Shown here: one piece after another, positions 1,374 through 31,876 of the stretch | Layout: each line of letters opens with the position of its first letter | Position numbering within the stretch: the stretch's first letter is position 1 | NCBI GenBank assembly: GCA_022843505.1 | Contig: JALHNN010000001.1 | Coordinates: 1-54,624, forward strand | DNA from: Sulfuritalea sp. | GTDB taxonomy: Bacteria; Pseudomonadota; Gammaproteobacteria; Burkholderiales; Rhodocyclaceae | Length of the DNA stretch: 54,624 nt | Reading direction: 5' to 3' | The notes under the pieces: model-generated | What the model saw: only the letters and a program-made list of their open reading frames with translations | Database searches by the model: none | What the model was told of the DNA's origin: nothing | Position numbers and translations under genes: made by a program

Positions 1374-2906
1374 TCAGTCTTCGGTAGTTCCAGACTGCAA
1401 CGCGGTGGCCCGCGCCCGGAGGCCGCTCCTGAAGTCGGTCGGGTCAGACGGCTCCGGCTCCTTGGTCGATTTTCCTGCCGAGGTCAGCAGCGATCCGCCC
1501 TTGCCGGTCGTCTTCATCGCCCCCTTGGCCTTGGAAAGCTGCTCCTTGAGTGCCGCCACCTCGCTTTCAAGTGCGCCAACCGTGCGCCGGAGGTGATGGG
1601 CCTCGGCGGCTTCGAGCTTCATCTGGCCGTATTCCAGCGGTGTCGATGGGTGCTTGCCGAGCCCATCGCGGAGCTGTTTGTTGAACTCGTTGGTCTCCTC
1701 GATCTGCTGGCGTTGCTCCGGCGTGGCATTGGCCGGGATTTCCACGTCCTTGAGCCAATCTGTCTTGCTCGTCGTTTCCGCAAGCCAGTTGGAGTATTCC
1801 TCCGCGGCCTTGCGTTCCGCCGCCTGCCTCCCCTCGACGGCAGCCCGCTGCGCGGCTTCCTGCTTCTCGTAGTGCTCTTTGAAATTGGCCGCCTCCTTCT
1901 CCTTGGCGACCCGTGCTTCCTCGGAAAGGAGGCGCTGCTGCCCCATGGCGGTCTTGATGAACTCGGCGTCGTCGAGTGGAATCGCCTGCATCCACGAACG
2001 CGCCAGTTCGGCCGCAGAGCGCGTAACCTGGACGTTCTCCCCGGTGCCGGGATCGACCTCGGTCACAGTGAATTGCTGGGTTGAGCGGCTGAACGGCCCG
2101 AATCCGCCCGCATCGGCAATCGCCTTCATCGTGGCCTGATTCACGAATTTTCCGAGCGTGTCGGCGATTGACTTTTCCGCCCGCGAGATGGGCTCGACAT
2201 ACTTAGCCTTGAAGTCGGGGTCGTTTTCGATTTCGACCCTGCGCCGAAGAATCTGGGCTGTTTGGGTAGCCTCCTCGAACTTCTTCTTCAGTTCGGCATA
2301 TTCTTCGGCGTTAACTGCGGTGGCGGGCTTTTTCCTGGCCTCCTCCAGTTCCCGCCTCGCCTCGGCCACGGCCTCGTCCTTCTTGGCGATCTCGCGCAGG
2401 AAGTGCTTGATTCGCTTGGCCGTTTCCGGCTTGTCGTGGGCAAGCACTTTGCGCTGATCTTCAGGGACATCCTCCTCCTCGGTCTTCTTGGGGGTCTCCT
2501 CTTTTTTCTCGACGGCCGGCGCAGCCTTTTTGTCGTCGGACTTTGGGGGAGCCTTGGCCTTCACCTCAATCACCTTCTCGGGATCTGATTCCTTCTCGGT
2601 CGCAGGGGCCTCCTGCTTTTTCTTCATCATCTCCCGCGCCTTCTCGCCGAACCCATCCAGCGACCGCTCCATGAGCCTCCCCTTGTCATCGCCAATGCGG
2701 AGGGTGTCTTCACGAGGCTCCTTGAAGACCGTTTTCGGGACCTCGGGGGCCGGCGGCTGCGGGTCCAGGGAGGGACGGCTGCTGCCGGCGAGTTCCTGGT
2801 TGAGCTGTTCCGGCGTAATCGGCTTGGCGGACGAGCCCGCTTGGCTCGGTGGAGATGCTTGAGGGGGGGTTGGGTCTGGCATAAGGGGGTTGGGTCTGGT
2901 GCTCAC
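1374..2906 (-). CDS. Coiled-coil, low-complexity protein; probable capsid scaffolding protein
   Basis: 510 aa, E/K/A/P-rich, helical, two genes downstream of the portal (positional inference). Confidence 0.5.
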   Translation of the reverse strand: MSTRPNPLMPDPTPPQASPPSQAGSSAKPITPEQLNQELAGSSRPSLDPQPPAPEVPKTVFKEPREDTLRIGDDKGRLMERSLDGFGEKAREMMKKKQEAPATEKESDPEKVIEVKAKAPPKSDDKKAAPAVEKKEETPKKTEEEDVPEDQRKVLAHDKPETAKRIKHFLREIAKKDEAVAEARRELEEARKKPATAVNAEEYAELKKKFEEATQTAQILRRRVEIENDPDFKAKYVEPISRAEKSIADTLGKFVNQATMKAIADAGGFGPFSRSTQQFTVTEVDPGTGENVQVTRSAAELARSWMQAIPLDDAEFIKTAMGQQRLLSEEARVAKEKEAANFKEHYEKQEAAQRAAVEGRQAAERKAAEEYSNWLAETTSKTDWLKDVEIPANATPEQRQQIEETNEFNKQLRDGLGKHPSTPLEYGQMKLEAAEAHHLRRTVGALESEVAALKEQLSKAKGAMKTTGKGGSLLTSAGKSTKEPEPSDPTDFRSGLRARATALQSGTTED

Positions 2907-3166
2907 GCCTCCATCGGCGGTTCGTCCAGCGTCCTCTCGGACGACGGAAGCCGGGTAAGGACACCGGTCAGATCATTCAGGGCCTCCTGGTATCCGGCCC
3001 ACTTCAGGGACGCCTCCATGATGGCCGCCACGGTGTCTCCCTTGGCGGCTGGACAGTGATTCATCCGCAAAAACATGACCGCCTCCTGAAACCGTGGATC
3101 GCCGGCAATTTGCCGCCACCAAATAATTGTGGTCTTGTCCAGCGTCGGAGCATCCATGGTCGTCAC
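2903..3166 (-). CDS. Small hypothetical protein between portal and scaffold
   Basis: 87 aa ORF overlapping the next gene start; typical podovirus position. Confidence 0.6.
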   Translation of the reverse strand: MTTMDAPTLDKTTIIWWRQIAGDPRFQEAVMFLRMNHCPAAKGDTVAAIMEASLKWAGYQEALNDLTGVLTRLPSSERTLDEPPMEA

Positions 3167-3231
3167 TTACTCTGCGCACGCGGCCTAACGTCGTGTCAAC
3201 CAAAGAATGACAGGCGTGTCAAAATTTTGCA

Positions 3232-5406
3232 TTATCCCGCAAGCTGCTGACCAGAAATTTGCGGAGCGCCTTGCTCGGCGAACTGTTGCTGCTGGGCGGC
3301 GGCCTGCTCCTTGGCCTTTTCCTCCATCGCGCGCTGGTAGCGTGCAAGAGTGGCCTTGGCCTCGTTGATCTGGTCCGGCGGCCACGTCTTTTGGCTCACC
3401 CCAGCGGCGTAGTGCGCGGCCAAATGAGTGAGTCCTGCCACCGCAGCCTGCATGAGCCCTCCGTTGATCGCGTCCTCGATTGGCTTGCCGGCCAGGCCCT
3501 GCCAGTGGACGTAATGGTTGTCCGTGACCACCACCTGCACCGGCTCGCCGGTCACCAGCATGGTCGTATTCTCAATCTGTTGCTGGCGTTGCTGCGCCGT
3601 GATCGTGGTTATGTCCCCATCCGGGACCACAATGCTTTCCACGAAAGAATCTCCGCCCCCGGGGACGCCGGCCGCCATGTAGCGGGCTGCCGCCGACTGG
3701 TTAAACAGGGGGTTCCCCATGACAGACGAGGCAAATTGGGCGCGCTGGCTTGCGGCATACTCGGTGAAGTCGGTAACGCTTTGGATTACCGGCTGATTGA
3801 TCAGAATCTCTATCTCCTCCTCAGTCAGGCTGATCGAAGGGGGAGGCGTGATCTTTTGCAGGATTTTTATACTTTTCCGCAACTTCCTCCAAATCGACGC
3901 GAGCCACCCGGCGTTGTCTCCCAACAATTTTTTGCGAACCCCCTTGGCGTATTCGTCATCGCTGTCTGGATCGAGCATCCGGCTGATCATGGTCCTCACC
4001 ACCAACGCAACCTGCTTCATCCACGCCTCCAGCACATCGCGCTGCGCCTCCTGCTCACGCGCAAGGGCGGCGTTCACCTGAGCGGCCTTTATGTCACTGG
4101 GCTGAAGGGGGATGGGCGGAAGATAATCGCCCACAATTTCTTGCGCCCACTGCGTCATACGGTCATCCAGGGCCAGATAGCCCTCTGACTTGCCCCCCAC
4201 CGCGGCCACGTTTCCAGCGAAGGTAGCCCCGGTGGCGATAATCATGGTGTCGTTCACCACAAGTTGTGCAGTGGCAACGTCTTTTGCGGACGCAACCTGC
4301 AACTTCTGCTTGTTGCTGTTCAGCAGGTTGTCTATCGAGTCGTTCCGCACCCTCTCCACCTGTGCAGCAAGGTCGTAAAGCAGCTGCCCGGCGCCCCAGG
4401 AACCGTGGATCGTGCCGTCCCCATACCCAAACGTCATGGCGACCACAACGTCGTCCGTCCTTTCGTATGCGTCAAGGTGCTCGTAGAGAAGCTGGAACTT
4501 GGTCGGTCCGCTTGGCCACAGAATGTAATGGCTGACCTTACCGTTGAACTCCACAACGTATAAATGCCTGCACTCTATAACCTTGGTGGTTTTTGTGTAA
4601 CTGAAATCCCATGCCTGCTCTCGAATCATCTCCTCCCACTTGCGTAGGTTGCTGTAATCGCTCGGCATTGCCGGAAGACTGGCCGCTTGGACGGCGGCCG
4701 CCACGGCGTCCTTCTGCCAATTCTCGCTTCCGCCCTCGACAGACTTCCGCACGATCTCCAGCAGGACATTGGGCTGGTAATCCCACTTCAGCGTGAACCT
4801 TTGCAGGTTTTCGTCCATGACCTCGGTTCCACGTGGAACGAACCCCCTGTCCATCCGGCATAAGTGCGGTCTCCACTCGTAAGGGTCTGTCCATGAAGCA
4901 AATCCGAACCCGTAATCCACCACCTCGGATGCCAACCCCCGCCAGAACATGTCATTTTTCCGCCATCCACGGATGGCCCGCGTCATTGTGTCCCTAAAAA
5001 ACTGGGTTTTCTTCTGTCCTTCAGGCCATCCGGCCGGAAGTTCGGCGGCCGTCATGGTCGATGCCGTCAGGACCGGCATGTAAAAGCGGGGCGCAGCTCG
5101 ATTCAGCTCCTTTTGCAGGAACCTGGTCGAAAAGTTTCGCTTCCACGCCTTGCCCTGATCCTTGAGATCCTTGTTGTTGTAAGGAGGCGCACCCTGCTTC
5201 TTGGCCGTGATTCTCCTGGCGTTCCTGATCAGGTTTCTCGCGTCCCGAATGTCGGTCTCTGTGAGATTCACCGCAGCATCGACCGAGGTGACCACGCGAT
5301 TGTCCGCCCCCATGGTTTTCTCGTCTACCTCCGGAGACGCGCCGTAGCCGCTCCCTGTCGGAGAAGTGGCAGTGGAAGATGGTAACCGGGAAAGCGGAGT
5401 CTCCAT
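3232..5406 (-). CDS. Probable portal (head-tail connector) protein
   Basis: 724 aa, Q-rich C-terminal tail, 'HGSWGAGQLLYD' segment, position ahead of scaffold-like gene. Confidence 0.65.
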   Translation of the reverse strand: METPLSRLPSSTATSPTGSGYGASPEVDEKTMGADNRVVTSVDAAVNLTETDIRDARNLIRNARRITAKKQGAPPYNNKDLKDQGKAWKRNFSTRFLQKELNRAAPRFYMPVLTASTMTAAELPAGWPEGQKKTQFFRDTMTRAIRGWRKNDMFWRGLASEVVDYGFGFASWTDPYEWRPHLCRMDRGFVPRGTEVMDENLQRFTLKWDYQPNVLLEIVRKSVEGGSENWQKDAVAAAVQAASLPAMPSDYSNLRKWEEMIREQAWDFSYTKTTKVIECRHLYVVEFNGKVSHYILWPSGPTKFQLLYEHLDAYERTDDVVVAMTFGYGDGTIHGSWGAGQLLYDLAAQVERVRNDSIDNLLNSNKQKLQVASAKDVATAQLVVNDTMIIATGATFAGNVAAVGGKSEGYLALDDRMTQWAQEIVGDYLPPIPLQPSDIKAAQVNAALAREQEAQRDVLEAWMKQVALVVRTMISRMLDPDSDDEYAKGVRKKLLGDNAGWLASIWRKLRKSIKILQKITPPPSISLTEEEIEILINQPVIQSVTDFTEYAASQRAQFASSVMGNPLFNQSAAARYMAAGVPGGGDSFVESIVVPDGDITTITAQQRQQQIENTTMLVTGEPVQVVVTDNHYVHWQGLAGKPIEDAINGGLMQAAVAGLTHLAAHYAAGVSQKTWPPDQINEAKATLARYQRAMEEKAKEQAAAQQQQFAEQGAPQISGQQLAG

Positions 5407-6731: not shown

Positions 6732-7283
6732 CTAAGGGCTGCGGCCCTCGGGGTCGCCCTTGTTGTTCGGTGAAGGGATGCGGCGCAGTTGGCTATGCCA
6801 GCGCAAGGCACGCAGCGCGGTGTCATCGAGCGGATGGCGAAGCACGTCGAGGCAGTCGGCCAGGCCGTCTGCACATTTCCCAAGCTCGTCGTAGTCCGCA
6901 GTCCGCACGGTCCATCCGTCGAGTTCATGGTCCAGGATTTCGGCGACTAACCGACGGGCCTCGGCGTGCTCGTTCGACATGAGCCAATCGCGGAAGCGGC
7001 CCTCGATTGCGGTCACGATTGTCTCTGCGAGGGCAGAAGCATCCGGAGTGTCCTCTACAGGTCGGACGGCGGAGCTATGTCCCATGACATGATTTCGCAG
7101 TGCTACAGGATCGGCCAACATCGCTCGCACTTCCGACGCCAACACTAGGCCAAACCGCCCAACCAATCGCCCGACACAGCGCTGAATGATGGCAAGCCCC
7201 CGGTCAAGTGCGCTGTATTTGGAACGCCAGCGGTTGTATCTCTGCCACTTCCGGGCGGTTGTGGAAGTTACTCGATTCTTCAT
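6732..7283 (-). CDS. Cassette ORF, hypothetical
   Basis: Ends 'PNNKGDPEGRSP' read through the attC arm; contains 'CVGRLVGR' attC-arm peptide. Confidence 0.6.
   Translation of the reverse strand: MKNRVTSTTARKWQRYNRWRSKYSALDRGLAIIQRCVGRLVGRFGLVLASEVRAMLADPVALRNHVMGHSSAVRPVEDTPDASALAETIVTAIEGRFRDWLMSNEHAEARRLVAEILDHELDGWTVRTADYDELGKCADGLADCLDVLRHPLDDTALRALRWHSQLRRIPSPNNKGDPEGRSP
6735..6771 (+). repeat. attC half-site (L'-R' arm only), array 1 left boundary
   Basis: agggctgcggccctcg-GGGTCG-cccttgtt-GTTCGGT; left arm missing next to the convergent GT gene. Confidence 0.55.
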
Positions 7284-7305
7284 GTTGGTGAATCACTGGG
7301 TCTGC
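7157..7305 (+). repeat. Degenerate attC site
   Basis: GCCCAAC caatcgcccgacac ... TGGTGA atcactg GGTCTGC; arms pair poorly. Confidence 0.45.
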
Positions 7306-7649
7306 GGAAAGATTAGTGCCTCGCTGCCGTCATCGGCCGCAGCGATCATCATCTTGTCGAGGAAGTCGTTCAGCGGGCTGTTGCCCACCTCGTCTTCGCG
7401 GGTCATCGCGCGTCCGACATCCCTCGCCCATGCCTTTCGGCGGCGCGTATCCACTTTGCAGTTGTTGAGTGGGCCACCGTTTCTCCAGTGACTAGCCCAT
7501 GCCAGAGTTCCGACGCCAATCTCGATCACGAGTTTGTTATCGCGGACCACGCACGCAAGCGGCGCAGACCCAGCGCCCACAGCCAACGCCCTAGCGGCGG
7601 ACTTCTTCGAGCGTGGCGTTGCCCGCTCAACATTGGATTTCTTTTTCAT
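7293..7649 (-). CDS. Cassette ORF, hypothetical
   Basis: Start and GGAGG RBS inside attC 7564-7697. Confidence 0.75.
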   Translation of the reverse strand: MKKKSNVERATPRSKKSAARALAVGAGSAPLACVVRDNKLVIEIGVGTLAWASHWRNGGPLNNCKVDTRRRKAWARDVGRAMTREDEVGNSPLNDFLDKMMIAAADDGSEALIFPQTQ

Positions 7650-7697
7650 AGAGTGGTGCCTCCGCTCGCGGGCGTCGGCTGATGCTTATTGTTCGGC
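7564..7697 (+). repeat. attC site
   Basis: GCAGACC cagcgccca CAGCCAACGCCC ... GGGCGTCGGCTGA tgcttatt GTTCGGC. Confidence 0.85.
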
Positions 7698-7991
7698 TTA
7701 AAGGTCACGGGCCATGGCCGCGTCGATGGCGTGGCGGAGTGAGCACCAGTTAGTGCTAGCGAGGATGTCGTCCAGTGTGGCGAGGTTGGATTGCCCGAGG
7801 GCACGATTTTCCAGCCACCTGATTCTGTCCGTGTCGGTGGTCTCTTTCGCCGAACCAGTCGGCACAGCAGCAACGACCTTGATGGGGTCGCGAGATTCGG
7901 GCGGACTGCCTGCGCTCGGGCTGGCCATCGCGTCCAGCATGTCCGCGCAGGCGGCGTGAAATTGATCGGGGGTCTTGATCGGTGTCGTCAT
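7698..7991 (-). CDS. Cassette ORF, hypothetical ('DTDRIRWLE...SLRHAIDAAM' family)
   Basis: Stop TAA abuts R' box; paralog at 31435-31692. Confidence 0.75.
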   Translation of the reverse strand: MTTPIKTPDQFHAACADMLDAMASPSAGSPPESRDPIKVVAAVPTGSAKETTDTDRIRWLENRALGQSNLATLDDILASTNWCSLRHAIDAAMARDL

Positions 7992-8039
7992 TGGGTTGGC
8001 GGGTTTACGTTCTGGTCGTGGCTGACCTCCGTGTTCGGA
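7849..8039 (+). repeat. attC site (191 bp, long coding loop)
   Basis: GCCGAAC cagtcggca CAGCAGCAACGACC ... GGTCGTGGCTGA cctccgt GTTCGGA. Confidence 0.8.
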
Positions 8040-8378
8040 TTAGTAGAGGTTTTCACTGTAGAGTGTGCCGGGGACGCTTACCTGCTCGCGGATTTGTCCG
8101 GTCGTCTCGGCTCTCTTCCACGCGGTCTCGCGGTCCAAGAATTTGCCCCGGATGTCGATGAAGCCCTGTTCCTTTACCCGGCGGTGATAGCCGTCCCCGT
8201 AGATGCGGTGCAGCGTGGCCCGCATGTCGGGCGAGAAGTGGCGCACGCCAGCGACGATCAAGCCGTCATCCATCAGCATCGCGGCGGACACGATGCGATC
8301 CGAACCAGACGCCAGACCATCAATGACGGCCCGCGAGACGGCAGGGAGAGATTCGGGGCTTTGGAGTGGGGCCGTCAT
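8040..8378 (-). CDS. Cassette ORF, conserved small phage protein ('RIVSAA...GVRH...EQGFID..GKFLDRETAW...LYSENLY')
   Basis: Recognisable widespread phage hypothetical motif pattern. Confidence 0.8.
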   Translation of the reverse strand: MTAPLQSPESLPAVSRAVIDGLASGSDRIVSAAMLMDDGLIVAGVRHFSPDMRATLHRIYGDGYHRRVKEQGFIDIRGKFLDRETAWKRAETTGQIREQVSVPGTLYSENLY

Positions 8379-8399
8379 GAGGTCAGCTTAGTGTTCGGC
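8299..8399 (+). repeat. attC site
   Basis: TCCGAAC cagacgcca GACCATCAATGACGGCCC ... GGGCCGTCATGAGGTCA gcttagt GTTCGGC; ATGA start/stop overlap lies in the stem. Confidence 0.9.
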
Positions 8400-8818
8400 G
8401 AAATACGCACTTCGCTCGGGTGGCCATACTTTTGCCATACGGGCACTGGTTTGTCCCCTAATGGCTCTAGCACTTCGCGCAGTCGCTTCATGTCTTTCGA
8501 GTCCGCCACGCCTTCGTCGTAGGTCTGGCAGTAATTGTCGATGGATGCCCGGTATCGACCGATTTCCGCGTGAAGATGCGCCTTTTCTCGTTCGTCTTTG
8601 GCAATTGCTGCGTCCATTTTTTCAAGCGTCTGTATCGCGCGGAATAGCGTCAGCGTTACCGGGTGCTGATTTGCACGAAATTCGGCAGCCCACTCGCGGA
8701 GGTTATCCACAAGATAAGGCACGCCGAACAAGCGATCAGAGCCAACGCTGACAGCGGCTCCTTGGTTTTCGATAGTTGGATTTGTATTCATGGGTTGAGA
8801 GTAGTTCTGCGCTGTCAT
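8375..8818 (-). CDS. Cassette ORF, hypothetical
   Basis: Begins within attC ('VSVGSDRLFG'), ends 'PNTKLTS'. Confidence 0.75.
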   Translation of the reverse strand: MTAQNYSQPMNTNPTIENQGAAVSVGSDRLFGVPYLVDNLREWAAEFRANQHPVTLTLFRAIQTLEKMDAAIAKDEREKAHLHAEIGRYRASIDNYCQTYDEGVADSKDMKRLREVLEPLGDKPVPVWQKYGHPSEVRISPNTKLTS

Positions 8819-8842
8819 CGTGGCTCACTCGCAGGGTTCGGC
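8723..8842 (+). repeat. attC site
   Basis: GCCGAAC aagcgatca GAGCCAACGCTGACAGCG ... CGCTGTCATCGTGGCTCA ctcgcagg GTTCGGC. Confidence 0.92.
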
Positions 8843-9234
8843 GTAAGAAGAGCGCGAATGTCGTCGGCGTAGTCTGCCAGCCGCGCACCGCTCTTTGTGC
8901 GCTCGGCCTCTTCCAGCGCGTAGCGCAGTCGGTCGAAGTTGGGTGCCGTGCCAGTCATGCGCGCTTCGATGGCTCTCCATGTCGGCTCGTATTCAGGCCA
9001 GTCAGATTCGACCACCACGCATTGCAGTAGGCTCTTACCTTCGAGCTTCCGCCCACAGGCCACCGTGCTTCCGAGACTGCGGAGTTTGTCCCATTCCACA
9101 CGCGACAGGTGCTTGCGGGCGTCGCTGAGTTTGACGACGAAGTATCTCGGCTCGCGAGCGAACGCCGAACCCACGGCCACAGCACAACCGGCGCGCTCGT
9201 CCGGCTTGCGATCATTTTCAGTTGGATTTTGCAT
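8815..9234 (-). CDS. Cassette ORF, conserved phage protein ('FAREPRYFVVKLSD...CVVVESDWPEYEPTW')
   Basis: Widespread phage hypothetical motif; ends 'PNPASEPR'. Confidence 0.8.
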   Translation of the reverse strand: MQNPTENDRKPDERAGCAVAVGSAFAREPRYFVVKLSDARKHLSRVEWDKLRSLGSTVACGRKLEGKSLLQCVVVESDWPEYEPTWRAIEARMTGTAPNFDRLRYALEEAERTKSGARLADYADDIRALLTPNPASEPR

Positions 9235-9288
9235 AGAGTGTTGGCGCGGCTTTAGCCCCGCGCCGGTGGCTGATCCGAACCGTTAGCC
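9164..9288 (+). repeat. attC site
   Basis: GCCGAAC ccacggcca CAGCACAACCGGCGCG ... CGCGCCGGTGGCTGA tccgaacc GTTAGCC. Confidence 0.92.
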
Positions 9289-10059
9289 GAAAGACATCAT
9301 GCGTTGTTGCTGACGCTTGGCCGCAATTTCGCAGTATTCCTCGGAAAGTTCGATGCCGATGGCGTAGCGTCCGAGTTCTCGCGCGGCCTGTAGCGTGGTT
9401 CCGCTGCCCATGAACGGATCGAGCACCGTCATTCCTTCCACGCTCACGCTCGCCATGAGGCGTTTCCACGCGCCAAGCGGCTTCACGCACGGATGGCCGT
9501 TCTTCTCTGGTGTTTCCGTCAGCGTGTAGCTGCATGGTGTGCCGAAGTTCCGCTTCGTCGGGTTTTTGCCGTAGTAGAGGATCGGTTGCGCGTCGAGGTT
9601 GCCCCACGTTTGCAGCCCGACGGCTGCCGGTTGGTAGTAGCACCCGAAGCTGTCCGGCTGCGGATAGCGCATCATGTTCGTGTTCCCCGGCGTCACGACA
9701 GTTGGCCATTTGGCCACGCATCGGCGGATCACGTCCGCCACCACGTCGCGGATATATTCCGGCGTGTCATCGAAGTCGCTCGTGTAGTTTCCCCGCCCGC
9801 GGTTCGTGCTCATGCTGCCACGTCCGCCGTGGATGCCATAGGGCGGGTCAGTCATCACGAGATGGCACTTCATTTCGTCCAGCACTTCGCGGCAGTCCGC
9901 GTGATAGATGGCGCACCATTCATCACGGTAGTAGAGGCTCCTCGAAGAAAGACCGGCTAACCAGTCGCCAGAGCCAACGCCGACAGCGGCCCGAGGTTTC
10001 TCGGGAGTCTGTCCGGCGTCGGATGCCAGTTGAAATTTTGCGCTGTCGGCGTGGCTCAT
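9283..10059 (-). CDS. DNA N4-cytosine/N6-adenine methyltransferase (beta class), carried as a cassette
   Basis: 'TDPPYG' catalytic motif, 'HPCVKP', 'VLDPFMGSGTT', 'IGIELSEEYC'; stop TAA inside GTTAGCC box. Confidence 0.92.
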   Translation of the reverse strand: MSHADSAKFQLASDAGQTPEKPRAAVGVGSGDWLAGLSSRSLYYRDEWCAIYHADCREVLDEMKCHLVMTDPPYGIHGGRGSMSTNRGRGNYTSDFDDTPEYIRDVVADVIRRCVAKWPTVVTPGNTNMMRYPQPDSFGCYYQPAAVGLQTWGNLDAQPILYYGKNPTKRNFGTPCSYTLTETPEKNGHPCVKPLGAWKRLMASVSVEGMTVLDPFMGSGTTLQAARELGRYAIGIELSEEYCEIAAKRQQQRMMSFG

Positions 10060-10072
10060 CTAGGTGTTGGGC
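9955..10072 (+). repeat. attC site
   Basis: GGCTAAC cagtcgcca GAGCCAACGCCGACAGCG ... CGCTGTCGGCGTGGCTCA tctaggt GTTGGGC. Confidence 0.95.
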
Positions 10073-10302
10073 GAAGAGATGCCGTCGTTATCGGCGAGGT
10101 CTTGCACGAGCTGCTTGAGCAGCGAGGCAGGCACACGCACCGCGTCTGCGTGGTTCACTTTCAGCGTGATGTAGGCCAGCGGATTGTCGTCGAAGTATCC
10201 GCGACCCGAGTAGGATTTGGTGTAGGTGGTCGCTGTGGGCGCAGACGCGCCCAACCCGCCAGTCGAGCCAACGCTCACAGTCTGTCCTTTTTCGGTAGTC
10301 AT
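10060..10302 (-). CDS. Cassette ORF, hypothetical
   Basis: ATG 10302 with GGAG RBS in attC loop; ends 'SPNT*' directly before the MTase ATG. Confidence 0.7.
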   Translation of the reverse strand: MTTEKGQTVSVGSTGGLGASAPTATTYTKSYSGRGYFDDNPLAYITLKVNHADAVRVPASLLKQLVQDLADNDGISSPNT

Positions 10303-10359
10303 AATTACGCTCCGTCTTTTTTGGTGTTCGAGTGAGCGCGGCTCACTTCCATGTTCGGC
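10249..10359 (+). repeat. attC site
   Basis: GCCCAAC ccgccagtc GAGCCAACGCTCAC ... GTGAGCGCGGCTCA cttccat GTTCGGC. Confidence 0.92.
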
Positions 10360-10703
10360 AGAATCACGATGCTGTTCGAGATGCCGTCCCACGCGGCCAT
10401 CTGGTAGCCGCTGGCGTTGCCATCGATTTCACCGTCCACGATGTCGCGGAAGTGTGCGGCGATGTTCCACACCTTGTAGGCTGGAAAGTAGAAGGCGCGC
10501 AGCGGTTTCGCGTCCTTGAAGATTTCGATTAGCGCGTCCTGTTTGCGCGGCTCCTTGAGGTAGCTTGCGCGCACAGTGTAGCCGCGATCCGGTTCCTTGG
10601 ACTCGAAGGCAATCGAGTCGATCAAAGAGCCGAACGAGGGGCCAGACCCAACGAGCACAGCGGCTCCTTGGTCGGCGGTAGTGGGTTCTGTATTCGTGTC
10701 CAT
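10305..10703 (-). CDS. Cassette ORF, hypothetical
   Basis: MDTNTEP...'VLVGSGPSFG'...'PNMEVSRAHS'. Confidence 0.75.
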   Translation of the reverse strand: MDTNTEPTTADQGAAVLVGSGPSFGSLIDSIAFESKEPDRGYTVRASYLKEPRKQDALIEIFKDAKPLRAFYFPAYKVWNIAAHFRDIVDGEIDGNASGYQMAAWDGISNSIVILPNMEVSRAHSNTKKDGA

Positions 10704-10747
10704 AGAGTTATTTGCGCTGTGCTCGCGGGTCATCCCCGGTGTTGGGC
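10629..10747 (+). repeat. attC site
   Basis: GCCGAAC gaggggcca GACCCAACGAGCACAGCG ... CGCTGTGCTCGCGGGTCA tccccggt GTTGGGC. Confidence 0.92.
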
Positions 10748-10980
10748 CTCGTCCGCCGCAGGAGCCGACCATAGCCATGCAGGCGCTCTCCGACTGTGCA
10801 TGTGGCGGGGATTTTGCTCGGCCACCACATATCGCCGTGCCTTATGACCGTGCCGTTTTTCACAGGCTTCCAGCCTCGGGGGTAGTCGGGCGGACGAGGC
10901 CCAACCAGCCGACCACAGCGAACGCCCTTCATGCGGCCTTTCTTCGTGGATGGCGTTCTACGCTCGTGTGATGTTTTCAT
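10708..10980 (-). CDS. Cassette ORF, small basic hypothetical
   Basis: 'VRCGRLVGP' start-arm peptide, 'PNTGDDPR' end-arm peptide. Confidence 0.7.
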   Translation of the reverse strand: MKTSHERRTPSTKKGRMKGVRCGRLVGPRPPDYPRGWKPVKNGTVIRHGDMWWPSKIPATCTVGERLHGYGRLLRRTRPNTGDDPRAQRK

Positions 10981-11035
10981 AGTTCAAAGGGTTTCACGTC
11001 CGCCCTCGGGCGTCCGCTGATTCGGATTGTTAGCG
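10899..11035 (+). repeat. attC site
   Basis: GCCCAAC cagccgacca CAGCGAACGCCC ... GGGCGTCCGCTGA ttcggatt GTTAGCG. Confidence 0.9.
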
Positions 11036-11398
11036 AAGCCAGCGTGCGGTTGTGCCATCGCGCAGAGTGAGCGTGTCGCCGCACGACATGACGACTTCCC
11101 CTGATTCAAGTTCCACGCGCTCGCCGTTCGGCAGTTCTGCGCGGTATTTTCCGCCGTTCCACTTCGGAAGGTTTACTTGCTCCGGGTGCTCGATGTAGCC
11201 TACTGCCCACCAGTGGTGTCCGCCATCCGAGATTTCCATGAGCACGTTGTCGCTTATCGCGAAGTGCGAGAAGTCGGGTTGCTTGCCGTATCGCTGCACG
11301 ATTTCGAGGGCGAGCAGTTCTTCGGTAGTCTCGAACGGGACCGCTGTCGGATGGTCCACGTCGCAGAATGATGGGATGTGTTGTTTGAATGAGTTCAT
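11030..11398 (-). CDS. Cassette ORF, hypothetical (ORF open to 11485)
   Basis: MNSFKQHIPSFCD...; stop TAA inside GTTAGCG box. Confidence 0.75.
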   Translation of the reverse strand: MNSFKQHIPSFCDVDHPTAVPFETTEELLALEIVQRYGKQPDFSHFAISDNVLMEISDGGHHWWAVGYIEHPEQVNLPKWNGGKYRAELPNGERVELESGEVVMSCGDTLTLRDGTTARWLR

Positions 11399-11410
11399 AA
11401 GAATGAAAGA

Positions 11411-11499
11411 CGCTAACAAGCGATTAGAGACAACGCGGGGACTGGCCGCTTTCTGCATTCGGGGCCAGAGGGCCGCGTGTCTCACTCGCGATGTTCAGG
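11411..11499 (+). repeat. attC site
   Basis: CGCTAAC aagcgatta GAGACAACGCGG ... CCGCGTGTCTCA ctcgcgat GTTCAGG. Confidence 0.9.
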
Positions 11500-11711
11500 G
11501 AAATCGGTTCGTGCTTTTCGCAGGTGCTGTCTTCAGGGCGCCAGTCGATTTTATCTTTCACCAGTTCGCACCATCCCATGATGCGGCCCGAAAGTTGCAT
11601 GGTCTTCGTTGGCACGGATGGCATCCCCCAGTGTCTGCATGAGAAGCACCGGGGACGCCGAGCCCCCGGATCAATCGGCAGAGCCAACGCTCCATGTTCA
11701 TGTGTTTTCAT
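11424..11711 (-). CDS. Anchor cassette ORF, Cys-rich (CxxCxxW...C...C), possibly metal-binding
   Basis: ATGA-coupled to VRR-NUC; only a degenerate R''-L'' arm (ccggatc aatcggca GAGCCAACGC, 11666-11690). Confidence 0.65.
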   Translation of the reverse strand: MKTHEHGALALPIDPGARRPRCFSCRHWGMPSVPTKTMQLSGRIMGWCELVKDKIDWRPEDSTCEKHEPISLNIASETRGPLAPNAESGQSPRCL

Positions 11712-17203: not shown

Positions 17204-17644
17204 TCAGAAGCGTGGGTTAGGGTTCCAGTATTCGCACAGCATTGAGTCCGTGTCCTCGTTGGGATCTTCGGGGTCGGCAATGTCGCCGGCCTCGTGAAAC
17301 TTGGCCCCGTTCCGGATCATGTCTTCGACTTGGTTGACGTGGCGATAGTGGTTCGACTCGCCCAGGGGTGCCCCGGCGAGCAGCTCCCGGATTTCGTCGG
17401 CGATAAGTTCGCGCTCCAGTTGGGGCAGTCCGTCGAGCAAGCCGCTCGGCTCAAAGTCGCGCGCAACCGCCGTCAGATCGTAACTTGGCGTGAATTCGCA
17501 AAGGTGCGCGTGCAGATTGCGGTTGAATCCGTAAACGGTTTGCACGCTGGACAGGTAGGGCTTGAGCTTGTCCGGGATGGTCCAGTCGGACGTATCTTTG
17601 ATGCCGATGAAGCACCAGTTAGGGGCGGGGGTGGTGGTGTTCAT
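17204..17644 (-). CDS. Hypothetical early protein
   Basis: MNTTTPAPNWCFIG..., ATGA coupled. Confidence 0.65.
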   Translation of the reverse strand: MNTTTPAPNWCFIGIKDTSDWTIPDKLKPYLSSVQTVYGFNRNLHAHLCEFTPSYDLTAVARDFEPSGLLDGLPQLERELIADEIRELLAGAPLGESNHYRHVNQVEDMIRNGAKFHEAGDIADPEDPNEDTDSMLCEYWNPNPRF

Positions 17645-17967
17645 GGGTGGTCGGCCCCTCCGGCTTTGGCTATGGCGGTGCGGGCGGAGTCGATTGTGCG
17701 TTGAACGCATGTAGTATTAGTGCCATCATGGAATTGCCCGACGACAAGCGACAGCGTATCTTTCAGCGCAGCCAACAAATCGGGCGCGGCGGCAATGAGG
17801 CGGGCGTCGGCTTCGGCGTTCGCTTCCTTCACGATGCAGTGGTCATTCGCAGCTTCATCGGAATAGATTCCGAATTGAGGCGAGTGCTCCGGGGTGGCGT
17901 GCTTGCTTATTGCCCACGGCCCTGGCGTGTGTTCGGACGTATTGGAGTTGTTGATTAGGCTGTTCAT
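17641..17967 (-). CDS. 'TPGPW...ARLIAAAPDLL' family small phage protein
   Basis: HTPGPW, EADARLIAAAPDLLAALK, ARTAIAKA. Confidence 0.8.
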   Translation of the reverse strand: MNSLINNSNTSEHTPGPWAISKHATPEHSPQFGIYSDEAANDHCIVKEANAEADARLIAAAPDLLAALKDTLSLVVGQFHDGTNTTCVQRTIDSARTAIAKAGGADHP

Positions 17968-18023
17968 GATATGCGCGCGGTTCCGCAGTGGTTGGTGGTG
18001 ATGTTTGATTTTGATGGTCATGG

Positions 18024-25940: not shown

Positions 25941-26230
25941 AGGTCTCTCGCTTTGGCAAGGGCTGCGCGGGCCGCCTGCCAGACTTCCTCGCCTCGCGAT
26001 GTGCGCCCCGTGTCCATCGTGTGAACCTCGAAATAGTTCGCCAGGGCATACAGTGCGGTATGCAGCTCGGGAGCGGCGGCAATGAGCTGCGCGTCGGGCG
26101 CGTGCTGAACGTGTGCGACGACAAAGTTATTGATCGAGCCGGGCGTTGGGTCCAAGGGCGACCAGACCTCAATAGCGAAACCGTCTTGGGCTTGAGTCCG
26201 CCACGGTCCTTTCGTGGGTTGGTCACTCAT
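25937..26230 (-). CDS. IS passenger, 'TPGPW...LIAAAPEL' family
   Basis: TKGPW...DAQLIAAAPEL...ARAALAKA. Confidence 0.8.
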   Translation of the reverse strand: MSDQPTKGPWRTQAQDGFAIEVWSPLDPTPGSINNFVVAHVQHAPDAQLIAAAPELHTALYALANYFEVHTMDTGRTSRGEEVWQAARAALAKARDL

Positions 26231-26547
26231 GACTGGCCCTCCGCCTTGGCGATTGCGTCGCGCAGAGCTTCCCACTCTAGATAAGAGGCAGGCTCTTTTG
26301 CCGGGTCAGGGATGCGATTACAGAACCCCTGAAACGCGAGGCGCGCAGCTTGCAGCAGGTCCGGAGCGGCGGAGATCAGTGAGGCATCGGCACGGTTGGC
26401 GGCGCGCGCCTCTTCGGACATGTCGCTCTGACAAACCGCTACCGTTGCATATGACTCACGAGCCTCAATGGCGATCAAGCGACCATCATGGAATACGTTG
26501 GCGGTCCACGGGGCTGGAGTGAATCTGGTGAATTTAGGTGTTTTCAT
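26227..26547 (-). CDS. IS passenger, 'TPGPW...LIAAAPDLL' family
   Basis: FTPAPW...ADASLISAAPDLL...RDAIAKAEG. Confidence 0.8.
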   Translation of the reverse strand: MKTPKFTRFTPAPWTANVFHDGRLIAIEARESYATVAVCQSDMSEEARAANRADASLISAAPDLLQAARLAFQGFCNRIPDPAKEPASYLEWEALRDAIAKAEGQS

Positions 26548-26559
26548 ACACACGAGACA

Positions 26560-26607
26560 GTGCACTGGGTGCACTGCATTGCAAGATAAATGTTGCACTC
26601 AGTGCAC
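26560..26607. promoter_or_regulatory. Two palindromic operator-like sites in a divergent intergenic region
   Basis: GTGCAC-tgg-GTGCAC (26560-26574) and TTGCAC-tca-GTGCAC (26593-26607). Confidence 0.6.
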
Positions 26608-28858: not shown

Positions 28859-29077
28859 ATGACCAAACCCGACAAACAATACCTCCCGATCCACGGGGAA
28901 AAAATCCGCGAGGCCCGCATTTGCGCCGGTCTGACGGTGCGGCAGCTGGCCGCGGGACTCGGCAAGGGGACGAAGGCCGTTTACCTGTGGGAGAACGGGG
29001 AAAGCTACCCGCGCCTCCCCGACTACTTTCGCCTGTGCAGGCTGCTTGGCTGCGGGCGCGCACCCTTTGGGCCATGA
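28859..29077 (+). CDS. XRE-family HTH regulator
   Basis: 'GEKIREARICAGLTVRQLAAGLG...VYLWENGESYP'. Confidence 0.85.
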   Translation: MTKPDKQYLPIHGEKIREARICAGLTVRQLAAGLGKGTKAVYLWENGESYPRLPDYFRLCRLLGCGRAPFGP

Positions 29078-29403
29078 CGAATACTGACACTTCGCGGTCC
29101 TCACAATCTGCGCCGGAGCGTGGCGCGTCCGATGGCCCGAGTTGCGCTGGGGCGGCGGGTTCGGCAATTCAGCCCGGCTCGACCGTCGCCTTCAAAGGCG
29201 AAGACGTGCAAGGCACCGTATCGCGGGTGAGAAACGGTCAAGCCTTCGTGAACTGGATAGGCTTCCGATATTCGCCGGCCTATGATGGGTGGCACCACGT
29301 CTCAAAACTCAGACTCTTGCCGAACGTCGCCAGTGAGCCACGGGCGAAGCCCGTTGGCTCTGATGGCTGGTTGGACTCCGAACCCTCGACCCACGAACAA
29401 TGA
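29074..29403 (+). CDS. Anchor cassette ORF (SH3/KOW-like 'IQPGSTVAF...GTV')
   Basis: ATGA-coupled to the HTH; half-site GTTGCGCTG gggcggcgg GTTCGGC at ~29141-29165. Confidence 0.7.
   Translation: MTNTDTSRSSQSAPERGASDGPSCAGAAGSAIQPGSTVAFKGEDVQGTVSRVRNGQAFVNWIGFRYSPAYDGWHHVSKLRLLPNVASEPRAKPVGSDGWLDSEPSTHEQ
29319..29376 (-). repeat. attC site (58 bp)
   Basis: plus: GCCGAAC gtcgccag TGAGCCACGGGC gaa GCCCGTTGGCTC tgatggctg GTTGGAC. Confidence 0.95.
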
Positions 29404-30290
29404 AAAACTCCAGCATCGAATGGACGACGCACACTTTCAATCCGTGGATCGGATGCTCGAAAGTCTCACCAGGCTGCGCACACTGCTACGCCGAAACGCT
29501 CAACAAGCGCATGGCCTGGACGCAGTGGGGTGACGCTGGCGAACGCTTCCGCACCTCTCCGCACAACTGGAATGAGCCGCGCCGCTGGCACCGCGAGGCA
29601 ACCAAGTCCGGCCAGCGCGCCCGCGTCTTTTGCGCGAGCCTCGCTGACTGGCTCGACCCGCGCGCCCCCGTGGCTTGGCTCGCCGAACTGCTCTCACTCG
29701 TGAAGGAGACGCCAAACCTCGACTGGCTATTTCTCACGAAAAGGCCGCAACTCTGGCGCGACCGAATGGCTGCTGTCGTCGGAATGCACATGAGCGATGG
29801 GCCGGCCGCGGTCGATCAATGCTCTGGTGCTGCGCTCGCGGCGGCATGGCTGAACGGTGCAGCGCCGCTGAACGTGTGGATTGGGACAAGTGTCGAGGAT
29901 CAGGATCGTGCCGACGAACGCATTCCTCATCTGCTCGATATTCCGGCGCGGATTCGATTTCTGAGCTGTGAGCCGCTGCTTGGTCCGCTCGACCTCAGCG
30001 ACTACACCGATCCAATCGACGGCGGTTATGTGGGTCGGTCATTCATCGACTGGATTATCGTTGGCGGCGAGAGCGGTCCCAAGGCGCGCCCGATGGAAGC
30101 GGATTGGGTGAGGTCGCTGCGCGAAGAGTGCGAAGTGAATGGCGCGGCTTTCTTCTTCAAGCAGTGGGGCGGAGTGCGAAAGAAGGAAGCCGGACGGATT
30201 CTCGACGGCGAGACATTCGATCAACTGCCAACCGTCGCCGAGGAGTCCAACAACCCGGTCAGCGGCGCGGCGAAGCCGCGTTCGCTGTAG
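29400..30290 (+). CDS. Phage Gp37/Gp68 (DUF5131) family protein, carried as a cassette
   Basis: 'SIEWT..TFNPWIGCSKVSPGCAHCYAE', 'LTKRP', 'FLSCEPLLG', 'VGGESG', 'FFFKQWGG'. Confidence 0.93.
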   Translation: MKNSSIEWTTHTFNPWIGCSKVSPGCAHCYAETLNKRMAWTQWGDAGERFRTSPHNWNEPRRWHREATKSGQRARVFCASLADWLDPRAPVAWLAELLSLVKETPNLDWLFLTKRPQLWRDRMAAVVGMHMSDGPAAVDQCSGAALAAAWLNGAAPLNVWIGTSVEDQDRADERIPHLLDIPARIRFLSCEPLLGPLDLSDYTDPIDGGYVGRSFIDWIIVGGESGPKARPMEADWVRSLREECEVNGAAFFFKQWGGVRKKEAGRILDGETFDQLPTVAEESNNPVSGAAKPRSL

Positions 30291-30304
30291 TGGATTGGTT
30301 CAGC
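30245..30304 (-). repeat. attC site (60 bp)
   Basis: plus: GTCCAAC aacccgg TCAGCGGCGCGGC gaa GCCGCGTTCGCTG tagtggattg GTTCAGC. Confidence 0.95.
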
Positions 30305-30312
30305 TCTTTCTA

Positions 30313-30588
30313 ATGAACACGCGAAACATAATCTTGAGTGGAATCGGCTATCGCATGACAGAAATAGACGGCCAACTCATCTTTGAGGAGGTCGGAGGAA
30401 TCTATGGGGTAACAAACCGCTTCACCCTCGAATGGCTAGGCACCGGATGGTATCTCGTGGATTTCGAGCACAGCTTCGGACACGTCCGGCTCTCGCACAT
30501 CAGCGCAGCGGAAAAGTGGGTCCGCGAGAACTACACCACCGAATACAAAGACGGCACAGGAACGGTGAAGCTGAACAGGCCGAGCTGA
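30313..30588 (+). CDS. Cassette ORF, hypothetical
   Basis: MNTRNIILSG...KLNRPS*. Confidence 0.75.
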   Translation: MNTRNIILSGIGYRMTEIDGQLIFEEVGGIYGVTNRFTLEWLGTGWYLVDFEHSFGHVRLSHISAAEKWVRENYTTEYKDGTGTVKLNRPS

Positions 30589-30642
30589 GGAGCGGAGATG
30601 CAATTTATGAATAGCAAGCAAAACGAGAATCCGTCGCCTCTG
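30570..30642 (-). repeat. Collapsed attC plus emptied cassette
   Basis: GCTGAAC aggccgagc TGAGGAGCGGA ... TCCGTCGCCTC runs directly into the next site; leaves mini-ORF 30607-30654 MNSKQNENPSPLANK. Confidence 0.6.
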
Positions 30643-30753
30643 GCGAACAAATAGTTCAGCCGCGAGGCCGCGAATTTCACCTATGAAAAGCACACGGAAA
30701 AGACTTACGAAAAAGGACAGCCCGGCCTCGTTGGCTGGAACGGCGGGTTCGCC
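30642..30753 (-). repeat. attC site
   Basis: plus: GGCGAAC aaatagt TCAGCCGCGAGGCCG ... CGGCCTCGTTGGCTG gaacggcgg GTTCGCC; ATG 30683 in loop. Confidence 0.9.
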
Positions 30754-31117
30754 TCTTTTGCTTTCAGCGCACGCCGTCCAGAATCCCGATGTGGGGCATG
30801 GCTGGCAACTCGACCTGAAATGCGGCGCTCCGCAACTGGTGATCTACCATGTGTGGACTATCGGGACATACAAAAACGGGCACCCGATGTTCGATCTTCG
30901 GGCTGTGACTACCGACAGTCTCAAGGCAAAAGAATATTCGAAGATGCTCCGCCGCGACAAGGAGGCGAATAGAGAAACGTGGTATCGCGTCCACATCGAG
31001 CCGCGTGTGGCAAACCACCTCTACGGTGAGTGTATGCGCGAATTTCGAGAAGCCACCGGACGCTTGGCGAACAACCCAGTCAGACACGAAGGGGCGCAGC
31101 CCCGGAGTTGTCTGTAG
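30683..31117 (+). CDS. Cassette ORF, hypothetical
   Basis: 'ASLAGTAGS' start-arm peptide; 'ANNPVRH' end-arm peptide. Confidence 0.75.
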   Translation: MKSTRKRLTKKDSPASLAGTAGSPLLLSAHAVQNPDVGHGWQLDLKCGAPQLVIYHVWTIGTYKNGHPMFDLRAVTTDSLKAKEYSKMLRRDKEANRETWYRVHIEPRVANHLYGECMREFREATGRLANNPVRHEGAQPRSCL

Positions 31118-31131
31118 TGGACTGGTTCGCA
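31066..31131 (-). repeat. attC site
   Basis: plus: GGCGAAC aacccag TCAGACAC gaaggggcgcagccccgga GTTGTCTG tagtggactg GTTCGCA. Confidence 0.88.
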
Positions 31132-31135
31132 CTTT

Positions 31136-31438
31136 ATGGACATCGGAACTAAAATCATCGACGAGATCGTGAAGCAGGGAATGTTCTGCGTGAACTATCC
31201 TGACCCAGAAGCCGCGCACGTCTTTGTGTGGTCATCGGGGGCGGCGGAACAACTCCACGCCATCGTTTGCGAATCCGGCGAGGTGCAAATCCCGCGCCGA
31301 GAGGCCGCGCTCTACGGCCAAGCCCTGCAACTCTTGGGCGCACCCGACAACGGCAATCCTGCCGAGCTGCTGGAATGGGCCGAGAAAACAGGGAAGCGCC
31401 TTTGTGCGAACGTTACGGCTCAGCCACGCGACCTATGA
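31136..31438 (+). CDS. Cassette ORF, hypothetical
   Basis: MDIGTKII...ANVTAQPRDL*. Confidence 0.75.
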   Translation: MDIGTKIIDEIVKQGMFCVNYPDPEAAHVFVWSSGAAEQLHAIVCESGEVQIPRREAALYGQALQLLGAPDNGNPAELLEWAEKTGKRLCANVTAQPRDL

Positions 31439-31492
31439 GCAACATACCTGAAGACACGTTCCCTCGCGTTGAGCTGGGGCCGGTGGTTGGGG
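31405..31492 (-). repeat. attC site
   Basis: plus: TGCGAAC gttacggc TCAGCCACGCG ... CGCGTTGAGCTG gggccggtg GTTGGGG; ATGA overlap in loop. Confidence 0.88.
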
Positions 31493-31692
31493 GCCGCTCG
31501 AAGCCGCTGAGCGACACCCAACTGCTGGACTGGATTGAGAACAATCCCGGACGGGTTCTGCACGCCAAAGGCTACCATGGGTCTCGCGATTCGTGGGGAT
31601 GGACAGAGCGCGGCGACTGGCGTGAAGCGAAATCCCTGCGCCATGCAGTGCTGGCAGCTATCGCGTCCTATGAAAAACAGACAGGCCCCTAA
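31435..31692 (+). CDS. Cassette ORF ('DTQLLDWIE...SLRHAVLAAI' family)
   Basis: Paralog of 7698-7991; stop TAA inside CCCTAAC box. Confidence 0.75.
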   Translation: MSNIPEDTFPRVELGPVVGGRSKPLSDTQLLDWIENNPGRVLHAKGYHGSRDSWGWTERGDWREAKSLRHAVLAAIASYEKQTGP

Positions 31693-31876
31693 CAATGGAG
31701 ATGTGCCGACGAGCGGCACGAACGGAGAATAATTTATGCCCGTCGAAATCACAAAAATAGAAACCGACAAAGACGACCAACTGGTCATCCATGTGCGAGG
31801 CACCGGAGGCTTGAGCGCAGAAGCAACACCCGGATCAGTCGCCACGCCGCTCGTTGGCACTGGCTCGTGGTTGGGC
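31687..31876 (-). repeat. attC site (190 bp, long coding loop)
   Basis: plus: CCCTAAC aatggagat GTGCCGACGAGCGGC ... GCCGCTCGTTGGCAC tggctcgtg GTTGGGC; GGAG RBS and ATG 31736 in loop. Confidence 0.88.

What the first reader, a model, noticed from the sequence alone, without database searches (positions are those of the whole stretch)
7564..11035. Inverted cassette design: ORFs antisense to attC, with start codon and RBS inside the cassette's own attC
Seen: attC polarity (L'-N7-8-GTT on the right) is on plus, but all ORFs are on minus. ATGs lie in the attC loop or stem (7649, 7991, 8378, 8818, 9234, 10059, 10302, 10703, 10980), so proteins begin with arm-encoded peptides (VGSDRLFG, VGSGDWLA, VGSTGGLG, AVGSA). 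Many end in PN.. peptides read into the neighbour's site. Stops overlap or abut the next start (ATGA at 8375 and 8815, TAG-ATG at 10060) or sit in or next to the R' box. Loops make sites up to ~190 bp because they are coding. Known: canonical cassettes have the ORF upstream of and co-oriented with attC. Inference: each cassette carries its own initiation signal, so almost any order gives a translationally coupled operon, and shuffling also swaps C-terminal tails.
Basis: partly seen in the sequence, partly recalled or inferred. Interest (0 to 1): 0.9.

Follow-up and report, generated by a model that had tools for sequence, protein, structure and literature searches.

The report
Backward integron cassettes in a phage
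This phage keeps its small accessory genes as swappable cassettes bounded by bacterial integron hairpins (attC), but the genes run backwards and most likely start inside their own hairpin, so that an integrase likely reshuffles them without breaking the operon.

Summary
Confirmed. The window is a phage with ten attC sites at 7563-11499 (top strand +, genes on -) and a second, unreported array at 29319-31876 (top strand -, genes on +): both antisense. Polarity is fixed by bulge geometry, by a profile seeded on Opitutaceae integron sites, and by intI geometry in relatives. In this attC family, phage cassettes are antisense (82 vs 10) and bacterial ones sense (163 vs 8). Cassette 8394-8836 recurs elsewhere with breakpoints exactly at G|TT and a different C-terminal tail. 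Read-through crosses the swap point as in-frame Asn (71 of 73), and that frame usually stops at the site's own ATG (72 of 109). attC leaders also recur on unrelated gene bodies, which are free genes in other phages. No integrase lies in the window, but 62 of 80 viral IntI-like loci examined sit beside such sites. Not supported: long loops caused by coding; a distinct RBS. Starts and activity are untested at the bench. My eight searches of the paper library found no description; this scan noted the design before on other DNA (16 findings, at least 15 genomes).

The parts
7563..7697 (+). attC S1 (top strand +), degenerate R''; holds ATG 7649 of ORF 7293-7649
   Evidence: score 27.5; unit 7297-7694 recurs in contigs of X13 and X5
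7293..7649 (-). antisense cassette ORF, 118 aa, no PHROG family
7849..8039 (+). attC S2, 191 bp, holds ATG 7991
   Evidence: score 34.7; geometry unresolved
7698..7991 (-). antisense ORF, 97 aa; stops just before the R' box; no other start within 44 codons after R''
8299..8399 (+). attC S3 (weak), holds ATG 8378
   Evidence: score 13.1 (within shuffle range); boxes complementary to neighbours' as for the other cassettes
8040..8378 (-). antisense ORF, phrog_839 family; free gene in 8 of 8 homologous loci
8394..8836 (+). cassette unit TT...G shown to occur in other flanks; ORF 8375-8818 on minus, reads through into S3 as PN-TKLTS
8723..8842 (+). attC S4, canonical bulges, holds ATG 8818 (and 8791)
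9164..9288 (+). attC S5, holds ATG 9234; same site found on other gene bodies
8815..9234 (-). antisense ORF, phrog_7810 family; family match begins at the R'' box
9955..10072 (+). attC S6, canonical; ATG 10059 lies in the L' box
9283..10059 (-). antisense DNA methyltransferase (phrog_67); stop TAA inside its own core box
10249..10359 (+). attC S7, canonical, loop 70% like Opitutaceae-type bacterial sites; holds ATG 10302
10060..10302 (-). antisense ORF, 80 aa, ends SPN-T
10629..10747 (+). attC S8, canonical; ATG 10703 and an in-frame ATG at 10733
10305..10703 (-). antisense ORF, reads through S7 in the Asn frame
10899..11035 (+). attC S9, holds ATG 10980
   Evidence: score 38.6
10708..10980 (-). 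antisense ORF, 90 aa, reads through S8 in the Asn frame; no family match
11030..11458 (-). antisense ORF; start either at 11458 inside S10 or at 11398 after it
29319..31876 (-). second array, six attC sites with top strand - (29319-29376, 30245-30304, 30642-30753, 31066-31131, 31405-31492, 31687-31876); ORFs on + (29400-30290 phrog_2045, 30313-30588, 30683-31117, 31136-31438, 31435-31692, 31736-32062)

Best explanation
The phage carries two rows of integron-type gene cassettes whose genes are written on the attC bottom strand, opposite to bacterial cassettes, and an integron integrase supplied from outside this contig likely cuts and pastes them at G|TT. Shown: the sites are attC of the family used by Opitutaceae-type chromosomal integrons; each cassette's two ends are complementary; whole units recur in other flanks with G|TT breakpoints; genes are antisense in both arrays and co-directional with the neighbouring phage genes; genes that cross the swap point do so with AAC as an in-frame Asn, and that frame mostly stops at or next to an ATG inside the next site. 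Inferred: those ATGs are the real starts, so each attC acts as a portable start-plus-leader module and any order gives a termination-reinitiation-coupled operon read from a phage promoter; the integrase is a host enzyme or that of a co-infecting phage (relatives encode their own IntI at the downstream end of such arrays). Inferred more weakly: new cassettes arise when an attC module is joined at its R'' box to the body of an ordinary phage gene, by top-strand integrase recombination or short-homology exchange in the conserved left arm.
For: Polarity; canonical intI geometry in 8 of 9 bacterial loci with both intI and sites. Orientation: viral 82 antisense/10 sense/36 unclear of 128 cassettes, bacterial 8/163/39 of 210. 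Ends: own R'' matches the upstream R' 7 of 7 bases in 9 of 9 array-1 cassettes, but the site's own R' in 1 of 9 (boxes); 101 of 128 vs 21 of 128 in viral loci. Mobility: window 8394-8836 vs L272, homology from G|TT to G|TT; near-identical copies in 5 of 6 independent runs laid with edges at 8393/8836-8842, and one contig lacking exactly 8837-9282. Frame: 71 of 73 read-through ORFs in the Asn frame; Asn-frame stop within -10..+4 of an internal ATG in 72 of 109 sites, 33 and 21 in the other frames, shuffle null 48+-3.5, max 60 of 1000, bacterial sites 5 of 321. Leader modules: S5 93% identical to an L272 site on another gene, S6 85% to L025; 8722-8842 and 9164-9286 alone in other contigs. Cargo as free genes: 0 of 8 and 1 of 62 homologues have a 5' attC. 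Phage IntI: L261 and L270 above the TIGR02249 cut-off; 62 of 80 viral IntI-like loci have upstream sites in canonical geometry with 69 antisense, 7 sense, 50 unclear cassettes.
Against: No tyrosine recombinase or attI on the window contig; no order variants in the two runs that hold the whole stretch. For 5 of 10 array-1 ORFs an alternative ATG/GTG/TTG lies within 4 codons after R''. My ORF calls take the longest ATG frame, which favours internal starts. Coupling fails in 37 of 109 sites, and the null already gives 48. Sites S2 and 31687 (190 bp) exceed the 57-141 bp quoted in PMC5371416 and S5 folds poorly (0.025). The frame at R'' is not locked, so only some leader swaps can be productive. 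Loci were picked by motif and are not independent.
Confidence: 0.78

Rival explanations
1. The arrays are fossils: cassettes were placed by an integrase in an ancestor that had intI, and here they are fixed genes whose overlaps were tuned to their present neighbours.
For: No intI on the contig; half-sites at the array ends (7157, 11677, 32045); no variants in X1/X2; weak sites S2, S3.
Against: A copy with 2 differences sits in unlike flanks in X11, so movement is recent; 13 of 14 window sites tested fold their L-box core with probability above 0.1; coupling holds where the present neighbour does not read through (17 of 26).
Confidence: 0.1
2. The hairpins are dispersed repeats, and cassettes are swapped by the phage's own homologous-recombination proteins using the conserved arms, not by an integrase.
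For: An exonuclease (phrog_69) and nucleases lie just upstream in the same operon; exchanges that begin exactly at R'' could arise inside the conserved 25-30 bp left arm.
Against: Breakpoints at the R' side fall on G|TT to the base; bulges and spacers are kept, which matter only to IntI (PMC5027507, passages); 62 of 80 viral IntI-like loci adjoin such sites.
Confidence: 0.07
3. Polarity is the other way round: the minus strand is the top strand, the cassettes are ordinary, and each gene merely starts in the previous cassette's site.
For: Two genes end with TAA inside a RYYYAAC box, as ordinary cassettes do; 5 of 10 sites are not resolved by geometry; attC bodies are also found apart from their gene.
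Against: Bulges lie on the left arm of +; the bacterial-trained profile calls +; the site travels with the gene on its R'' side in L272 and five runs and with the R'-side sequence in 0 of the antisense pairs with alike loops.
Confidence: 0.03
4. The cassettes are antisense but translation starts after the hairpin; the in-frame leaders are chance.
For: Alternative starts within 4 codons after R'' in 5 of 10 array-1 ORFs; 38 of 101 viral cassettes do start after the site; few Shine-Dalgarno motifs.
Against: In the other 5 of 10 the next start is 11-44 codons on, inside the family domain for the methyltransferase and phrog_7810; ATGs open through R'' in 96 of 172 viral but 60 of 321 bacterial sites, and coupled in 63 vs 5.
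Confidence: 0.02

Closest known systems
[quoted passage not shown] 2023, PMC9892861)
   Same: attC arrays without intI in phages, often with DNA methyltransferases; five of six phage attC sites recombined with IntI1 in that paper.
   Different: The passages read do not describe antisense genes or starts inside attC. TJE1's array is canonical (sites and genes both on +); P12002L attC1 has its top strand opposite to the methyltransferases but lies between genes.
Sedentary chromosomal integrons of Opitutaceae/Verrucomicrobiota
   Same: Same attC sequence family, spacers, bulges and similar lengths; same complementary cassette ends (164 of 210); same intI geometry.
   Different: Bacterial cassettes are sense (163 vs 8); phage cassettes are antisense, carry phage gene families, cross the swap point in frame and start in the site.
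Translational coupling at attI1 (ORF-11) and short ORFs in attC (review PMC8876359, passages)
   Same: A reading frame runs across the crossover, takes its stop from the incoming cassette and helps reinitiation; translation through an attC hairpin relieves its block.
   Different: There a helper peptide on the top strand serves the first cassette; here the cargo genes themselves do so on the bottom strand at most junctions.
Single inverted cassettes from top-strand recombination (Nivina et al. 2016, PMC5027507, passages)
   Same: IntI can cut at R'' on the top strand at low frequency.
   Different: That inverts a whole cassette, gene and site together, and silences it; here the gene is inverted relative to its own site throughout the array.

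Membership tests
attC site | R'' (RYYYAAC) and R' (GTTRRRY) boxes, L''/L' arms, 5- and 6-base spacers, extrahelical bases on the L'' arm | tested here: met
   Full canonical geometry in 5 of 10 array-1 and 4 of 6 array-2 sites; all 16 called by the profile with one polarity per array; S1 has a degenerate R''
attC site | Bottom strand folds into the recombinogenic hairpin | tested here: met
   Predicted probability of the L-box core pairing above 0.1 in 13 of 14 window sites computed; S2 could not be computed, S3 was below the score cut
attC site | Recombined by IntI with bottom-strand selectivity | not testable with these tools
   Needs an attC x attI assay
Integron gene cassette | Unit bounded by G|TT crossovers with complementary ends, found in different neighbour contexts | tested here: met
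   9 of 9 complementary ends; G|TT-to-G|TT homology
Integron gene cassette (canonical) | Gene on the top strand, upstream of and outside its attC | tested here: not met
   10 antisense, 0 sense, 5 unclear of 15; 14 antisense ORFs called, 11 starting in the site
CALIN | Cluster of attC sites with no neighbouring integron integrase | tested here: met
   Two clusters; no PF00589 or TIGR02249 match on C1; about 5.5 kb of the phage lies outside the window (60-kb contigs)
Complete integron | intI next to the array | tested here: not met
   met in relatives L261, L270
Complete integron | attI site and Pc promoter | tested here: inconclusive
   Array ends inspected by eye only: half-sites, no clear attI; promoters not scanned

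The most novel reading that the evidence does not exclude
Phages run their own branch of the integron system with inverted cassettes, in which attC is at once recombination site, translation start and N-terminal leader, the crossover is frame-locked on an Asn codon, and new cassettes are minted from ordinary phage genes by exchange at both ends of the site (R' moves whole cassettes, R'' grafts a leader onto a new gene body). These arrays would be a place where cassette genesis can be watched and rebuilt.
Probability: 0.45. Interest if true: 0.92.

Novelty: new variant of a known kind. Interest (0 to 1): 0.78.

Why it matters
Integron cassettes are thought to be kept in one orientation so that Pc can express them, and phage attC arrays were reported as rare captures (17 CALINs in 10,705 genomes, PMC9892861). 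Here a widespread phage layout reverses the gene against its site, uses the hairpin as coding sequence and obeys a reading-frame rule at the crossover; 197 viral stretches encode IntI relatives. It shows phages using integron chemistry to shuffle accessory genes such as methyltransferases, and it offers paired free and cassette forms of the same genes plus reused attC leaders, which bear directly on cassette genesis, called a subject without a reliable model in PMC4792948 (passage read).

Tried and rejected
Rfam: no match in the window. Annotated phages: no relative of 8380-10400 beyond a 39-54 base piece in four E. coli phage records. Homologue scan for ORF 7293-7649: 8 candidates, none confirmed. 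Scan with the single L261 IntI found only itself and two weak recombinase hits; the alignment was needed. The bin's own intI (C282) precedes a sense gene and is not tied to this attC family: outside C1 the profile found only C177 (a phage-like contig) and one site on C323, so the bin does not identify the host. C177 does not overlap the window. Whole-site free energies of top and bottom strands did not separate polarity (some ends offset by 1-2 bases). 'Long because coding' rejected, though internal starts do go with longer sites (median 112 vs 92). Frame lock at R'' rejected. No terminal repeat, so the contig is incomplete; GC skew gave no usable replication origin, so the lagging-strand argument stays a guess. 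PH101 was not checked. Earlier-finding look-ups by place returned nothing.
Full report
Context. The window is a 54.6-kb linear phage contig: PHROG matches to exonuclease, endonuclease, helicase, methyltransferase, head and tail proteins, no terminal repeat. It is contig C1 of a 597-contig bin; none of the 8 PF00589 matches or 9 TIGR02249 matches of the bin lies on C1. Two runs hold the whole stretch on 60-kb contigs, so about 5.5 kb of the phage is unseen.

The sites are attC. Each has RYYYAAC, a 5-base spacer, a left arm with two extra bases, a loop, a right arm, a 5-7-base spacer and GTTRRRY. A motif from the left arm found at least 167 stretches in bacterial genomes, mostly titled Opitutaceae or Verrucomicrobia. 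A weight matrix trained on 45 such bacterial sites alone found 4 array-1 sites on + and one site on - at 29319, and nothing in 5 shuffles. After iteration with viral and window sites it found ten sites on + (7563-11499) and six on - (29319-31876); 15 of the 16 score above the best of ten shuffles (19.0), S3 does not. Polarity is anchored three ways: bulge geometry (5 of 10 and 4 of 6 sites clear, none clearly opposite), the bacterial profile, and position relative to intI, canonical in 8 of 9 bacterial loci and in phage L261. The role of the bulges in strand choice is from PMC5027507 (passages).

The genes are antisense, and that is a phage trait. Using the longest ATG frame per strand, the window gives 10 antisense, 0 sense, 5 unclear of 15 cassettes; 134 viral loci give 82, 10 and 36 of 128; 161 bacterial loci give 8, 163 and 39 of 210 (Fisher p 9e-47 on the clear calls, inflated because loci were chosen by motif and are related). 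Seven of the ten sense calls come from two contigs with bacterial-type arrays (L264, L020). The second array faces the other way and is again antisense, so in this genome the sites follow the direction of transcription.

The units move as cassettes. In array 1 the R'' of each cassette is the exact complement of the R' box on its left in 9 of 9 cases but of its own R' in 1 of 9 (boxes), the mark of circles joined at G|TT. Unit 8394-8836 matches L272 over its full length; homology starts at GTTCGGC, is 100% through S4 and stops at G|TT, with unrelated flanks. The protein ends PN-TKLTS here and PN-HQDHQFRGLKI there, with an ATGA overlap in both. Of 8 runs laid, 6 are independent of the source; 5 of them have contigs with an edge at 8393-8395 or 8836-8842 (X11: 8393-8842, 2 differences, unlike on both sides), 4 have an edge at 7694-7695, and X7 has a contig joining 8835 to 9282, the exact loss of one cassette, with only 27 letters on the short side.

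Reading-frame rules. Of 14 antisense ORFs in the window, 11 have their longest start inside their own site; 8 read across the crossover, all with AAC as Asn, 3 stop with TAA in the box, 3 stop before it. In viral loci 63 of 101 start inside; 63 of 65 read-through ORFs use the Asn frame. The PN signature is therefore the R box itself. The Asn frame meets a stop within -10 to +4 bases of an internal ATG in 72 of 109 sites, against 33 and 21 for the other frames and 48+-3.5 (max 60) in 1000 shuffles; only 5 of 321 bacterial sites do so. It holds in 34 of 48 sites whose neighbour reads through and 17 of 26 whose neighbour does not, so it is a property of the site. The frame at R'' is free (2/4/5 in the window, 14/26/23 in viral loci). 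The MSH- starts use an ATG already present in the L' box of the bacterial consensus. For 5 of 10 array-1 ORFs no alternative start exists within 11 codons after R''; for the other 5 one lies within 4 codons. Shine-Dalgarno-like motifs are uncommon before internal ATGs (24 of 109) and before other genes of this phage (6 of 20), so reinitiation is the likelier mode (inference, by analogy with passages of PMC8876359).

Where the cassettes come from. The cargo is phage-type. Homologues of ORF 8040-8378 are free genes in 8 of 8 loci, one pair 87% identical from residue 27 on, and the attC leader replaces their short native N-terminus at R''; 1 of 62 homologues of ORF 8815-9234 has a 5' site, a short one with the native start (my profile sees only this attC family). 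Conversely S5 is 93% identical to an L272 site from R'' to G|TT on an unrelated gene, S6 85% to an L025 site, and contigs from X13, X4 and X7 share 9164-9286 or 8722-8842 alone. Gene body and attC module thus assort separately. Top-strand cutting at R'' (known at low frequency, PMC5027507) or short-homology exchange could do this; neither is shown.

The integrase. L261 and L270 encode integrases above the TIGR02249 cut-off, at the downstream end of the antisense genes and just before portal or terminase-like genes. An alignment search gave 197 viral stretches; of the best 80, 67 have a detectable site, 62 have sites upstream with the top strand opposite to intI, and cassettes are 69 antisense, 7 sense, 50 unclear (34, 2 and 1 loci; near-duplicate loci not merged). 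A bacterial integrase 60% identical to L261's serves sense cassettes (L128), so the enzyme need not be unusual. The window's arrays would depend on such an enzyme in trans (inference). Why the inversion is favoured is inferred: genes are read from a phage promoter at the far end, towards intI; and the recombinogenic strand becomes the coding strand, which for genes co-directional with replication is the lagging-strand template that favours folding (PMC5371416, passages).

Literature. Eight searches of the library returned no paper describing this layout; most subscription journals are not held. Read: PMC9892861 parts 1 and 3 of 7, term passages and part 1 of 2 of its supplement (figures not visible); passages only of PMC8876359, PMC5371416, PMC5027507, PMC4792948 and 10.1101/2022.09.11.507474. 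TJE1 is canonical; P12002L attC1 is antisense but intergenic. This scan's earlier notes report the same design in at least 15 other genomes; they are not counted as evidence, but one gave me the Asn-frame lead and one the lead to phage integrases.

Verdict. Real, a new variant of the integron cassette, well supported by comparative sequence, untested at the bench. Interest 0.78.

Noticed in passing
window 29074-32062: Second inverted cassette array on the opposite strand; short sites (58-66 bp) have the ATG just after the site, long ones inside it.
   Followed up: yes
window 7157-7185, 11677-11695, 29159, 30570-30645, 32032-32058: Half-sites (one arm only) at the ends of both arrays and one truncated site inside array 2; an isolated GTTCGGT at 6765 ends ORF 6732-7283 as PN. 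Likely decayed cassettes.
   Followed up: partly
window 10741-10757 and 10889-10905: The ends of cassette 10742-11029 form a 17-base perfect inverted repeat, longer than the usual 7-base box match.
   Followed up: no
L096 (G000:C177) 2648-4603: A second phage-like contig in the same bin with a capsid-like gene and three attC sites with antisense ORFs; no overlap with the window.
   Followed up: partly
L261 4690-4810; L270 840-900: Candidate attI-like crossover (GTTAGGT after an A-rich stretch) between the last methyltransferase cassette and intI in phage integrons.
   Followed up: no
L143: Prosthecobacter-titled locus with intI on the same strand as the attC top strand (reverse geometry).
   Followed up: no
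L316 (P12002L) 29248-31255: Methyltransferase genes on minus separated by attC-like sites whose top strand is plus: an antisense layout in a cultured phage.
   Followed up: partly
window 17641-18021 and 26227-26598: Two genes of the same family (phrog_1273) in the divergent middle region.
   Followed up: no
G000:C282 1-2900: Three further tyrosine recombinase genes in a row downstream of the bin's integron integrase.
   Followed up: no
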